A DNA stretch of 63,535 bases, filler included, from Octopus bimaculoides (lineage: Eukaryota): the NCBI RefSeq assembly GCF_001194135.2. It is 5 parts of 4 records of this genome, joined end to end, with 100 filler letters (N's around TTAATTAATTAA, not from the genome) between each part and the next. Parts side by side here need not be neighbours in the genome. Positions count along the whole stretch, not along the records: positions 11,299 to 34,696 come from NC_068999.1; positions 34,797 to 48,715 come from NC_068995.1; positions 48,816 to 61,599 come from NC_069007.1; 2 more parts are not named here. One strand, 5' to 3'. The notes below the pieces were generated by a model that searched no databases, had not been told where the DNA came from, and saw only the letters and a program-made list of their open reading frames with translations. Made by a program: the position numbers and the translations under genes. Each line of letters begins with the position of its first letter. The first letter of the stretch is position 1. Below are positions 34,400-55,597 of the stretch, one piece after another.

Positions 34400-34670
34400 G
34401 AATTCTGTTTATTTATATATATTTTTGGTTCAATACTGTGCTGATGAACGAAATCTAGATTCATTCTAGTAATCGCGAAATCGGCCGATACACAGTTTAT
34501 TTAAAAGAAAGTTGGTCGTCTTCTGTTGGTTGTTTTCCCTGTGTGGCGTTATTATTTTCTGTAATAATGCCCTTTATATAAATATAAACGAATAATTATA
34601 TTCTTGGGAATAGAAATTTCCCTTCTGAATTTTTTTACACACTGGCTTCTAGATAAAATTCTTGTAAAAG
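34400..34670 (+). mobile_element. Second, diverged copy of the 55.1-55.6 kb HHR-bearing element
   Basis: HHR followed by tgtggcgttatt...gccctttatataaatataaacgaataattatattcttgggaatagaaatttccc, shared with the 55 kb locus. Confidence 0.65.
34435..34496 (+). ncRNA. Type I hammerhead ribozyme (same family as 55406-55468)
   Basis: ACTGTG-CTGATGA-ACGA aa tCTAG attcatt CTAG taa TCGC-GAAA-TCGGCCGA-TA-CACAGT. Palindromic helix III, AUA triplet at 34488-34490, compensatory helix I change relative to the 55.4 kb copy. Confidence 0.8.
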
Positions 34671-34812
34671 AGTTTTATCCCATTTTGAATTTATTTNNNN
34701 NNNNNNNNNNNNNNNNNNNNNNNNNNNNNNNNNNNNNNNNTTAATTAATTAANNNNNNNNNNNNNNNNNNNNNNNNNNNNNNNNNNNNNNNNNNNNTAGA
34801 GATTTATACACA

Positions 34813-34846
<34 letters not shown>

Positions 34847-35656
34847 CACACGCTCATATGCATTCACCTACACGTGCTTGAATGCGTTCTGTTCCAGATT
34901 ATCTTAGTAGGGAGACCTCATGTCATGTTTGCTGTCCCAGGCTTAACTCAATGAATCCAGCTGTTTTAGTAGTCGGAAAAGATAAAAAGCATAGCTTGCA
35001 GACAAACGCGGCTAACTTAACAAAAACATTAAACCCTCGCGAAATTAAGCAAACTTGAAACAAAACTTTTCACAAACCAACTAATGACCTCACGACTCTC
35101 GGCTTTATAATATATTTGCACTGTTGTTAGGTTTTTGCAACGGTTTCTCTGCTTCGTTACGGGTTGTGGTTGTTGTTGTTCTTGGTTTTCGTTGTTGTCG
35201 TTCTTGTTGTTGTTGTTGTTGTTGTTGTTGCTCCTGTTGCTGCGTGTCGTTTTTGTTGTTGTTGACTTGTCCCGGCTCGTTAATTCTGGCGAGAAGACCC
35301 TTTTATTTAGCTGTTTGTTTTGTTTGTTATTTTATTAGGTTCGTTTATTTGTTTTGTTCTTTTTTTTTTCGTCTTATACCTGTTTCACTCGTTGGACTGC
35401 GGCCATACTGGTGCATTGACTTGAAGGGTTTAGTTGAACAAATCGATCTCAGTCTTTTTTCTTTTTCTNNNNNNNNNNTTTTTTTTTTTTTTTTTTTTTT
35501 TTTTTTGTCTTTTGAAATATTTGTTTCCTATTGTTTCGCCGAACTGCTAAGTTGCAAGGACATAAATAGCCCAAGACTAGTTACAAAGACACACACACAC
35601 ACACAGATAAATAGAGAGAGAGAAGAAGAGAGATAGAAAGGGAGAAAGAAAGAAAT

Positions 35657-35737
<81 letters not shown>

Positions 35738-51643: not shown

Positions 51644-51680
<37 letters not shown>

Positions 51681-54583
51681 CGNNNNNNNNNNNNNNNNNN
51701 NNNNNNNNNNNNNNNNNNNNNNNNNNNNNNNNNNNNNNNNNNNNNNNNNNNNNNNNNNNNNNNNNNNNNNNNNNNNNNNNNNNNNNNNNNNNNNNNNNNN
51801 NNNNNNNNNNNNNNNNNNNNNNNNNNNNNNNNNNNNNNNNNNNNNNNNNNNNNNNNNNNNNNNNNNNNNNNNNNNNNNNNNNNNNNNNNNNNNNNNNNNN
51901 NNNNNNNNNNNNNNNNNNNNNNNNNNNNNNNNNNNNNNNNNNNNNNNNNNNNNNNNNNNNNNNNNNNNNNNNNNNNNNNNNNNNNNNNNNNNNNNNNNNN
52001 NNNNNNNNNNNNNNNNNNNNNNNNNNNNNNNNNNNNNNNNNNNNNNNNNNNNNNNNNNNNNNNNNNNNNNNNNNNNNNNNNNNNNNNNNNNNNNNNNNNN
52101 NNNNNNNNNNNNNNNNNNNNNNNNNNNNNNNNNNNNNNNNNNNNNNNNNNNNNNNNNNNNNNNNNNNNNNNNNNNNNNNNNNNNNNNNNNNNNNNNNNNN
52201 NNNNNNNNNNNNNNNNNNNNNNNNNNNNNNNNNNNNNNNNNNNNNNNNNNNNNNNNNNNNNNNNNNNNNNNNNNNNNNNNNNNNNNNNNNNNNNNNNNNN
52301 NNNNNNNNNNNNNNNNNNNNNNNNNNNNNNNNNNNNNNNNNNNNNNNNNNNNNNNNNNNNNNNNNNNNNNNNNNNNNNNNNNNNNNNNNNNNNNNNNNNN
52401 NNNNNACAAGTGCAAAAAAAAAAAAAGAGAAAGGTAAGATAGTGCATCTTGGACTCATTGAAGATAGTTCATTATAATGGTCTGCTCCTCTGGCCTTGGA
52501 ATGACCAATGCCTTGTGAGGGTCTGGTAGATGGAAACTGCAGGAAGCCTGTTATGTGTGTGTGTGTGTGTGTGTGCGTGTGTATGCACATGTGCACAAAT
52601 GTCAGTATTCCACACTTGTTACTGGCTGAGTGAAGTGGTGGTGGTAAATGTCAACATTCATCATCGTCATTTTAACGCTACTTTCCATGCTGGCATGGGT
52701 TGGACGGTTTGGCAGGAGCTGGCCAGCCAGGGAGTTGCACCAGGTTCCAAGTGTCTGTTCTGGCATGGTTTCTTCAACTGGACATATTGCCAAACCAGAC
52801 ATTGGATCTCAGCAAAGTCCTCTGGCTTGCCAGTTCCTGTCAAACACATGCTGGCATAGAAAACTGATTGATGTTAAATGATGATGATTATGACAACAAA
52901 CCCCTCAGATAACCATGAAGACTCCCACCCACCAACCCACAAAAGGGTCAATATTGGGCACTATGCCAATCTCTGCCCTACTGCCTTAAAAAAAAAAAAA
53001 GACAGGATGGTCACTAAATGGAAAGGGCTTTGATTACCCTGTAACATTTTTTTCTTTTTTTGTCTTTGGTCAATAAGTGTTAATTCCTATTTGCTTCTCT
53101 CCAGAAATCAAAGGAAATCACTATTATTCTCTTCAAACTTTGCTTTTGTCATTTGGACATCAATGTATTGTAACTGACCTATTTTCCATTACATTTCACA
53201 CAGATTCAACACTGAATTGCTGAAGCAGAAGTATCGTTATAGCAAATATTCAGCTCAATACCTCAGATTAGCTTGTCAGTTGCTTGACCTTAACGACTTG
53301 AGCAGGTCTTTGATGATGAGCAGTAGTGAGGGAACATCATAGCCATGTGTTGAGAGGGATCTTTTGGGGTTTGAATACATGTAAGAAAAGCAAAGTTTGA
53401 AGGAAACATGAGCCATTATTCATTCTTTCTAGAGATAAGCAAATAGGAAATAAGAGTTACTACCCAAGGACAAAAATCATGTTACACAGTGTTATATTCT
53501 TGCTCGAAGAATAACAACCTCAGATTAAACGACAACAACTACTTACCTGGTATGTCCAAAAGGAAAGGGCCCTTGAACATATTTCCATGATAACTTCTGG
53601 TTTTTGACCAGCAAGGACCATCTAAATAAAAACAAAGGAACATAATTACTTGAGAGTGGATTTCGTAGACAGAAACTGAAAAGCATCTGTTTTTATCTTT
53701 TACCTGTTTCAGTCATTAGACTGTGGTCATGCTGGGGCACCAGCTTCAAGAATTTTTAGACAAATGAATCGATTCGTTCATTCTATTTTGCTGAACCACT
53801 AAGTTACAGAGACATAAATGCACACCAACACCAGATGTCAAGTGGTGGTGGAGGCCAATCAGACACACACACACACATCAGGCTTCTTTCAGTTTCCGCC
53901 TACCAAATCCCTTCACAAAACTTTGGTCAGCTCTCTTCTACCCCACTCCTGATCCACTGTTTCTGTCCCCTCTTATGCTCACCTTATACCTTGAGAGTTT
54001 GTTCTGGTACCCTATCACCATCATCTTTATCTTCTTCTCAAATACTCCCACCCACCCTTATATAATGGAGTGTAGCTATGTATCCCCTCTACAGCAACAT
54101 ACCTGCACTTGTTCCTCCATCAGACTTCAGCCCCACCACATCCCCAGCATCTAGCATAAATCCACCTCCCCATCTCTAATACTCTCACACCCCTATTTAG
54201 TCATGGGGACTTTAAGCTCTGTTTTCTGTTCGTTTTCTGCCTTGCAGCTTACTTGGTGACCTCACGAGTGCCACAGGCATGCTAAAAGCACCCAGTAAAC
54301 ACTACAAGATGGTTGGCATTAGGAAGGGCATCCAGCCATAGAAACCATCTTAAAGCTGACACTCGAGATCAGTGCAGCCTGGCAGCTTCACTGGATCCCG
54401 TCAAACCATACAACCCATGACAACATGGAAAAGAGACAAATTATAATGATGAAATGTCTTGCTCAAGAACACAACATGCTGCCCACCTTAGGAACGGAAC
54501 CCACAACACTGAGGTTGTAATCCCAACACCTTAACCACAAAACCAGATACAATAAAAAAAAAAAAAAGAACTGTGTGTTAGAA

Positions 54584-54870
54584 CAGGGGTTTTCAAACTT
54601 TTTGACTTGCGGACCCCTTTATATTTCAGGCTTTACCTTAGGGACCCCCTTATAAACGCTTATGAAATTTATACATAAATATTTGCTTAAAATAACATAT
54701 ATTTTTACATTTATTTATTTAACAAATAGATTTATTGTCAATTAAAAGATTTCGATTAAAAAACATATATAAAATCAAATTGCCAATAAAAAGTATTTGC
54801 TGTCCACGGACCCCCTGTCTTGTCCTTGCGGACCTCCTGTGGTCCGCGGACCACAGTTTGAAAACCCCTG
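54584..54870. mobile_element. Non-autonomous hAT (Buster/Charlie-type) MITE, 287 bp
   Basis: Perfect 16-bp TIRs CAGGGGTTTTCAAACT / AGTTTGAAAACCCCTG and a perfect 8-bp TSD TGTTAGAA at 54576-54583 and 54871-54878, with central TA. Confidence 0.92.
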
Positions 54871-55136
54871 TGTTAGAATAAGTTCTCAAAGAAATAAATA
54901 CTTACAGACTTATATTGGTCTGAAGGTTGAAGGTCAATTCTGATAATATCAAAAGTTCCAGAAAGGCTGCTTTCACCTGTATATAGATTAATTAAAACAG
55001 AGATGTTAATTTCAAATCCATTTCTAATAGGGGTGGGTAAACAAACAACACTGGTAGTCATGCAATGGTGAGGGGACAAGCACACTCACACACACACACA
55101 TCTACATATAAGAAAAATGAATTCAATAATGGGATA

Positions 55137-55597
55137 AAATTTTATCAGGAAGCTAGTGTGTAAAAAATTCATAAGGGAATTTTCTATTCCCAAGAATATA
55201 ATTATTCGTTTATATTTATATAAGGGCATTACTACAGAATAATGCCACACACTAGACTTCTCAAATAAACACATTTTATTACCGAATGCAAGGAAAAGCA
55301 TCTCTTAAAAAAACCCAACCTTTTTTAAGAAAATAAACTCAACTATGTATCGAACGATTACCAGAATAAAATCTAGCTTTCGCTATTTTTATATATCTGT
55401 ACCGTACTATGCTGATGAGCGAAAGCTAGATTTTATTCTGGTAATTGTGAAATCATTCGATACATAGTTGAGTTTATTTTCTTAAAAAAGGTTGGTTTTT
55501 TTAAGAGTTGCTTTTCCTTGCATTTGGTAATAAAATGTTTATTTGGGAAGTCTGGTGTGTGGCATTATTCTGTAGTAATGCCCTTATATAAATATAA
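55137..55597. mobile_element. Head-to-head inverted duplication of an HHR-bearing element
   Basis: Arms 55210-55384 and 55418-55597 are near-perfect reverse complements around a 33-bp spacer. 55137-55250 also matches the reverse complement of about 34545-34660. Confidence 0.75.
55406..55468 (+). ncRNA. Type I hammerhead ribozyme (same family as 34435-34496)
   Basis: ACTATG-CTGATGA-GCGA aa gCTAG attttatt CTGG taa TTGT-GAAA-TC attc GA-TA-CATAGT. All three helices can pair (G-U wobbles in helix II); AUA triplet at 55460-55462. Confidence 0.8.

What the first reader, a model, noticed from the sequence alone, without database searches (positions are those of the whole stretch)
34435..55468. Two copies of one HHR family, 21 kb apart, show compensatory base changes
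Helix I is ACTGTG/CACAGT at 34.4 kb and ACTATG/CATAGT at 55.4 kb, a G-C versus A-U double change. Helix II and its apical stem keep pairing through G-U wobbles in the 55.4 kb copy, while the downstream flanks have diverged considerably. Both use the less common AUA triplet. Covariation suggests the fold was under selection while subfamilies diverged (inference from only two copies; CpG-independent chance cannot be excluded).
Basis: partly seen in the sequence, partly recalled or inferred. Interest (0 to 1): 0.75.

Follow-up and report, generated by a model that had tools for sequence, protein, structure and literature searches.

The report
Hammerhead retrozyme family with conserved fold
The two motifs are copies, on different chromosome-sized contigs, of a 512-base non-coding jumping repeat in what is probably an octopus; each carries a hammerhead RNA motif predicted to cut itself, and paired base swaps between its subfamilies show the fold was likely kept by selection, as in retrozymes already known from mussels, corals and amphibians.

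Summary
Both hammerheads and the helix I swap (G-C versus A-U) are real at the stated coordinates. "21 kb apart" is an artefact of the packed window: the copies lie on contigs C19 and C27. They belong to a family of ORF-less, ~512-nt head-to-tail units with at least 307 hammerhead-bearing copies, showing Penelope-type 5' truncation, 5' inversion and (TA)n ends. On a tree built from flanks only (136 copies), shared changes never hit the catalytic core (0, against 29 private hits). Only 2 of 29 shared changes were disruptive, against 107 of 213 private ones (p=4e-6). Six compensatory swaps mark subfamilies, three of them seen in held-out copies. So selection on the fold is supported. Two changes in the 55.4-kb copy are private CpG decay, and the youngest subfamily carries an A10.1·C11.1 mismatch. 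Cleavage and circles are not shown; RNA reads look like low read-through. Verdict: new member of a known kind (non-LTR retrozyme, non-autonomous Penelope-like element). This scan noted similar hammerhead families elsewhere in this genome, but not this sequence.

The parts
34358..34696 (+). Copy 1: 5'-truncated unit (unit positions 127-510 of 512), youngest subfamily A, with private 5-nt and 40-nt deletions; preceded by a TA/CA microsatellite
   Evidence: G000 C19
34435..34496 (+). Type I hammerhead of copy 1. Helix I 34435-40/34491-96; CUGAUGA 34441-47; helix II 34448-51/34473-76, opening with A10.1·C11.1; 3x3 internal loop; apical stem 34455-59/34465-69; GAA 34477-79; palindromic helix III AUCGGCCGAU 34480-89; A17 at 34490 (predicted cut after it)
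55384..55597 (+). Copy 2, sense arm: 5'-truncated unit (from about unit position 179) of the older B2-type subfamily, ending at a TA-rich site
   Evidence: G000 C27
55406..55468 (+). Type I hammerhead of copy 2. Helix I 55406-11/55463-68; CUGAUGA 55412-18; helix II 55419-22/55445-48 (G10.1·U11.1); apical stem 55426-30/55437-41; helix III 55452-61; A17 at 55462. Private CpG changes at 55446 and 55455
55116..55384 (-). Inverted 5'-truncated second piece of the same unit, making the insertion a fold-back. Its hammerhead lacks the 5' core and has an 8-nt deletion, but keeps the ancestral CpG at one of the two sites mutated in the sense arm

Best explanation
The two motifs are type I hammerheads in dispersed, truncated copies of one ORF-less ~512-nt head-to-tail repeat unit, which is likely a non-autonomous Penelope-like element (non-LTR retrozyme) whose source RNAs were likely under purifying selection to keep a hammerhead predicted to self-cleave. 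Shown: the unit, its partial tandems, its inversions, its (TA)n ends, the subfamily ladder and the shared-versus-private pattern. Inferred: a tandem transcript would be cut after AUA, probably best as a dimer through the palindromic helix III. A unit-length, possibly circular RNA would then be copied by a Penelope RT/GIY-YIG enzyme primed at a nicked (TA)n target. Reverse transcription would start at AT-rich sites 140-250 nt downstream of the cut site and run across it, so the template would be re-ligated or uncleaved. Inserted copies, including these two, then decay neutrally.
For: Copy number: 235 and 307 exact matches to two hammerhead patterns, 0 for reversed controls. Architecture: of 196 distinct loci, 66 have the unit-end/unit-start junction, 56 have an adjacent inverted piece, and the longest tandem is 749 nt. 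Of 73 copies reaching the unit start, 44 match the unit end by pattern; by eye 27 of the other 29 show a remnant of it, and none shows an ORF. 3' ends cluster at unit positions ~400-415 and ~512, mostly followed by (TA)n. One locus holds two hammerheads 521 nt apart (L236). Selection on the flank-only tree (136 copies): core changes 0 shared vs 29 private, against flank changes 214 vs 917 (p=0.006); disruptive vs tolerated 2/27 vs 107/106 (p=4e-6). The result holds in 59 copies found with queries outside the ribozyme (1/19 vs 63/49, p=1e-5). 12 of 14 shared changes at intact pairs kept pairing, against 37% expected from the flank mutation spectrum (p=2.6e-4). N7 is the only core-loop position that changes between subfamilies. 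Held-out copies (23 with a full motif, of 29) show three more swaps: apical G-C to C-G in 5, helix II G-C to A-U in 3 and A-U to G-C in 3. The unit folds far below shuffles (circular z=-7.4 for one real copy; -6 to -12 for 8 of 8 subfamily majorities). One insertion (L032) joins a Penelope RT fragment directly to the unit.
Against: No cleavage assay. RNA reads are few (98, 157 and 89 of about 12 million in 3 of 3 raw runs, one study). They lie on both strands, 39-48% run into flanking sequence, and they show no piled-up ends or joints beyond inversions, unlike the abundant circles reported for retrozymes. The youngest and commonest lineage has A10.1·C11.1 (72 of 140 copies), and the isolated motif's minimum-energy fold is an inactive one (-17.3 vs -11.8 kcal/mol). 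No autonomous element sharing the unit's sequence was found. No locus with two full units was seen among 196. Covariation outside the ribozyme was not separable from slid controls. Trees from short, partly overlapping flanks are noisy, and parsimony counts are approximate.
Confidence: 0.8

Rival explanations
1. The copies are only the 5'-truncated 3' ends (pseudo-LTRs) of an autonomous Penelope-like element whose full-length form is missing from this gappy assembly or from the best-hit lists.
For: Truncation, inversion and (TA)n ends are those of PLE insertions (PMC8557442, passages). Searches score only 40 candidates of several hundred, and many young copies end in N gaps.
Against: No ORF lies upstream of any of the 73 copies that reach the unit start, and the same end-to-start junction occurs in young and old subfamilies. 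tblastn with PLE frames found a directly joined RT piece in only one locus, L032, and it belongs to a family with its own different hammerhead.
Confidence: 0.1
2. The ribozyme is vestigial or nearly silent in the young lineage. The fold is kept as a structural signal for the Penelope enzyme, or cleavage has been tuned down so that uncut tandem RNA is copied.
For: Both shared pair-breaking events fall on 10.1-11.1 (G-C to A·C, G·U to U·U). Every intact-motif copy was copied across the cut site. No RNA ends pile up at the site. PLE hammerheads cleave poorly in vitro (PMC4209133, passages), and 8 of 9 Xenopus retrozymes did not cleave (bioRxiv 2026.07.22.740005).
Against: The core and A17 stay invariant on shared branches. 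U10.1·U11.1 is a known tolerated variant (PMC3088659, passage). The young lineage gained a perfect helix III palindrome (self-duplex -16.7 vs -8.4 kcal/mol), which would help only a dimeric ribozyme.
Confidence: 0.2
3. The compensatory pairs arise without selection, through template-switch correction of inverted repeats, transition bias and shared ancestry.
For: Each swap is one event inherited by many copies, so shuffle tests overstate it (tool caveat). Shared branches are somewhat richer in transitions (128/86 vs 476/441), and flank pairs did not clearly beat slid controls.
Against: This cannot explain why the unpaired core is spared (0 vs 29). Pair retention exceeds the spectrum-corrected expectation. 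G·U intermediates are present (C-G, U·G, U-A at helix I pair 5), and one swap is a double transversion.
Confidence: 0.05

Closest known systems
Metazoan non-LTR retrozymes (Cervera and de la Pena 2020, PMC7229834; abstract and passages read)
   Same: ORF-less, low-GC (33%) unit with one type I hammerhead, head-to-tail junctions and a highly structured predicted RNA; molluscan examples exist (mussel, 350-390 bp).
   Different: The unit is longer (512 vs ~170-400 nt). It occurs as dispersed partial tandems of under 1.5 units with 5' inversions rather than as multimers. Abundant linear and circular RNA was not seen in the reads tested.
Hammerheads in PLE pseudo-LTRs (Cervera and de la Pena 2014, PMC4209133; passages read)
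   Same: [quoted passage not shown]
   Different: No ORF here. G10.1-C11.1, highly conserved in that paper, is the least conserved pair here (A·C, G·U, A-U, U·U, G-C). Helix II is extended by a 3x3 internal loop and a 5-bp hairpin.
Non-LTR retrozymes as non-autonomous PLE derivatives (Li, Clavereau, Pollet, bioRxiv 10.64898/2026.07.22.740005; parts 1-3 of 5 read, abstract to discussion; supplements closed)
   Same: Proposes this partnership; its family lengths of 51-972 bp include 512, and monomer-rich families are described.
   Different: That work is mainly on vertebrates and rests on co-occurrence and pLTR homology. Here no homologous PLE was found, but the insertion scars and one RT-unit chimera point to PLE machinery.

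Membership tests
Type I hammerhead ribozyme | Core CUGANGA...GAAA...UH with three helices, helix I open | tested here: met
   each core position conserved in 134-139 of 140 copies
Type I hammerhead ribozyme | Paired 10.1-11.1 closing helix II (usually G-C) | tested here: inconclusive
   G·U in copy 2, A·C mismatch in copy 1; over 140 copies A·C 72, G·U 38, A-U 9, U·U 9, G-C 6, other 6
Type I hammerhead ribozyme | Covariation supporting the helices | tested here: met
   R-scape not available
Type I hammerhead ribozyme | Site-specific self-cleavage | not testable with these tools
   no end pile-ups in RNA reads, which is not a test of cleavage
Non-LTR retrozyme | ORF-less unit of a few hundred nt with one type I hammerhead | tested here: met
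   512-nt unit
Non-LTR retrozyme | Head-to-tail tandem with at least two complete hammerheads | tested here: inconclusive
   junction in 66 of 196 loci; two motifs one unit apart in one locus (L236, next to an assembly gap); no array of two or more full units
Non-LTR retrozyme | Abundant monomeric linear and circular RNA | tested here: inconclusive
   low, two-stranded, read-through-like coverage; one self-closing 543-nt contig in a run of unknown kind
Penelope-like element (autonomous) | RT plus GIY-YIG ORF | tested here: not met
Penelope-like element (insertion type) | 5' truncation, partial tandems, adjacent inverted piece, microsatellite target | tested here: met
   features as listed in PMC8557442

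The most novel reading that the evidence does not exclude
The family is a natural evolutionary series showing a ribozyme re-tuned inside a genomic parasite. The core was held fixed and six pairs were swapped, while the normally conserved 10.1-11.1 pair was opened to A·C and helix III became a perfect palindrome in the youngest subfamily. This would make cleavage dimer-dependent, so that only tandem transcripts yield circles, and those circles would be copied by Penelope enzymes, with the RT-unit chimera and the self-closing 512-nt contig as traces.
Probability: 0.2. Interest if true: 0.55.

Novelty: new member of a known kind. Interest (0 to 1): 0.3.

Why it matters
The role of hammerheads in Penelope-type elements is still open (PMC8557442, passage). 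This family shows with an internal neutral control (private versus shared changes) that the catalytic core was under purifying selection in a non-coding mobile element. It also offers a ready set of natural variants, including A10.1·C11.1 and three helix III loops, for testing whether slow or dimer-dependent cleavage is what such elements select. The class of element and covariation in such families are already in print, so the gain is incremental.

Tried and rejected
Rfam: no hammerhead family matched, probably because of the extended helix II. Following the RT fragment in L032 led to a separate PLE family with its own hammerhead; of the 30 RT loci, only L061 (the same place as L032) matched the unit, so it is not the parent. 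A second AUA hammerhead family was followed as a possible parent; it has no similarity to the unit and no PLE hit in 20 of 20 loci. Whole-unit covariation: RNAalifold on 8 subfamily majorities gave 8 two-sided and 20 one-sided changes in flanks. The fairer test, with the structure taken from one copy, gave 50/81 shared vs 116/332 private pairs kept, but 3 of 6 slid controls were also enriched, so it is inconclusive. A possible intron from the conserved GGTRAG upstream of the motif: no spliced joints. Sequencing runs: no RNA holder listed on record among indexed runs. X21 gave 0 contigs, which proves nothing. A17>U in RNA reads as a ligation mark: no such copy in the assembly (0 of 3 non-A matches), but another RNA-only variant of similar frequency occurs 57 nt away, so a private allele of one expressed locus is more likely. 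Pfam and PDB gave nothing for the PLE protein. An IQ-TREE run timed out, so FastTree and parsimony were used. Rows dropped: 170 hits gave 145 unique copies; 1 deleted arm, 4 with indels and 4 with short flanks were left out, leaving 136. The first tool alignment had offset coordinates and was not used. Literature: five searches found no paper on cephalopod retrozymes; subscription journals are mostly not covered and bioRxiv supplements were closed.
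Full report
Observation. The window is a pack of five stretches. Copy 1 lies in the second and maps to G000 C19:39.57 Mb; copy 2 lies in the fourth and maps to C27:6.98 Mb. The 21-kb distance therefore has no meaning. The motifs are as described: type I hammerheads at 34435-34496 and 55406-55468, AUA triplets, predicted cuts after 34490 and 55462. A covariance model built from 72 family copies finds only these two full motifs in the window, plus a fragment at 55354-55383 (-) and a weak unrelated motif. Copy 2 is in the training set and copy 1 equals a training sequence, so these scores hold by construction. 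The genome is 2.34 Gb in 145,327 contigs. The label 'octopus' comes from earlier notes of this scan and from my recall of genome size; I did not test it.

The element. Searches with the downstream flank, the upstream flank and two ribozyme patterns show a dispersed family: 1312 and 671 first-look candidates, and 235 and 307 exact pattern matches with 0 for reversed controls. The unit is 512 nt and 33% GC, with the ribozyme at unit positions 204-265. Among 196 distinct loci, 66 show the unit end joined to the unit start and 56 have an adjacent inverted piece; the longest tandem is 749 nt. 3' ends cluster at AT-rich unit positions near 400-415 and 512, mostly followed by (TA)n. Of 73 copies reaching the unit start, 44 match the unit end upstream by pattern; by eye 27 of the remaining 29 show a remnant of it, and none shows an ORF. 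One locus, L236, has two ribozymes 521 nt apart. Copy 2 is a fold-back insertion (55116-55384 inverted against 55384-55597). Truncation, partial tandems, inverted 5' pieces and microsatellite bias are the listed marks of Penelope-like insertions (PMC8557442, passages). L032 joins 433 nt of a Penelope RT directly to the unit. That RT family has RT and GIY-YIG look-alikes in the Atlas and its own different hammerhead. I read L032 as a template-switch chimera (inference; 1 locus).

Covariation. 170 hits gave 145 unique copies, 140 parsed without indels and 136 with enough flank for a tree. I grouped them into eight subfamilies by diagnostic ribozyme positions. They diverge 2.7% (A, copy 1's group, n=61) to 6.4% (B2, copy 2's group, n=16) from their own majorities, and A and B2 are 81% alike. 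Shared changes hit the core 0 times against 29 private hits, while the flanks changed 214 and 917 times (p=0.006). Disruptive versus tolerated changes were 2/27 shared and 107/106 private (p=4e-6). Copies found only by upstream-flank queries gave 1/19 and 63/49 (p=1e-5). Correcting for the mutation spectrum of shared branches, 37% of changes should keep a pair; 12 of 14 did (p=2.6e-4). On 72 stratified copies the covariation score beat 500 of 500 shuffles and all slid registers, though that control ignores relatedness. In 29 held-out loci chosen by the 3' strand only, 23 had a full motif: helix I pair 1 was paired in 22 and pair 3 in 21, with one copy misparsed because of an insertion. Three further swaps appeared: apical G-C to C-G (5 copies), helix II G-C to A-U (3) and A-U to G-C (3).

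What the two copies themselves show. Copy 2 differs from its four nearest relatives at four sites. Two are the helix I pair 1 state. The other two are private transitions at CpG (55446, giving a G·U; 55455, breaking a helix III pair). CpG transitions are 2.3-2.7 times commoner than others among private changes, and the inverted arm keeps the ancestral base at one of the two sites. These are decay, not selection. Copy 1's ribozyme equals one of the two commonest haplotypes (15 of 140 copies).

The oddity. Both shared pair-breaking events fall on 10.1-11.1, which is A·C in 72 of 140 copies, including the youngest lineage. The literature calls this pair highly conserved, with U·U tolerated (PMC4209133 and PMC3088659, passages). 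The same lineage changed loop 3 from GU to GC, which makes helix III a perfect 10-nt palindrome (self-duplex -16.7 vs -8.4 kcal/mol) and also stabilises an inactive monomer fold (-17.3 vs -11.8 for the active fold). Both fit dimer-dependent, tuned-down cleavage, which is inference only. Other hammerhead families in this genome also show a mismatch at this place.

Expression. Three raw RNA runs of one study gave 98, 157 and 89 reads from about 12 million each. The reads lie on both strands, 39-48% continue into unrelated flanks, and there are no end pile-ups and no spliced joints. This looks like read-through from host transcripts, though such libraries can lose small circles. A run of unknown kind holds a single 543-nt contig that closes on itself (512 + 31). 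A circular RNA would give this, but so would low-coverage DNA of many partial tandems.

Comparison and verdict. The element works like a non-LTR retrozyme moved by Penelope enzymes (PMC7229834, passages; bioRxiv 2026.07.22.740005, parts 1-3). It meets the sequence criteria but has not been shown to cleave or circularise. Subfamily covariation in PLE hammerheads is already reported. Five searches found no description of a cephalopod family, and this scan's notes hold similar families in this genome but no look-alike of this sequence. It is a new member of a known kind with unusually clean evidence of selection. Interest 0.3.

Noticed in passing
window 10987-11031 (-): Unrelated minimal type I hammerhead (CUGAGGA, short helix II opening with a C·A mismatch, palindromic helix III ACUCGAGU, GUC triplet) flanked by 47-nt direct repeats.
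   Followed up: partly
window about 56795-56867 (+): Another type I hammerhead, 1.3 kb from copy 2: G10.1-C11.1, long helix II, palindromic helix III ACCUAUAGGU, GUC triplet.
   Followed up: no
window 41302-41408 (-): U6 snRNA match (63 bits, gathering score 44) with several substitutions, probably a retrocopy.
   Followed up: no
L091-L100 (e.g. L091 about 1830-4435): [quoted passage not shown]
   Followed up: partly
L100:1780-2060 and L291-L310: Second abundant AUA hammerhead family (1827 candidates) with an A·G or A·A mismatch opening helix II. Copies extend at least 1.8 kb upstream, and L291 has an open frame with a CCHC zinc knuckle upstream of the motif.
   Followed up: partly
L101:5806 (unit position 259): RNA reads show U instead of A at the nucleotide before the predicted cut in 7/26, 26/66 and 11/27 reads. 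No such subfamily-A copy is in the assembly. Probably a private allele of one expressed locus.
   Followed up: partly
unit positions about 155-170 (window about 34389-34400): A GGTRAG splice-donor-like motif upstream of the ribozyme recurs across subfamilies, recalling the Penelope 5' UTR intron; no spliced reads seen.
   Followed up: partly
L032:1376-2240 (-): Chimeric insertion: a Penelope RT fragment joined directly to unit position 98, between TA-rich ends.
   Followed up: yes
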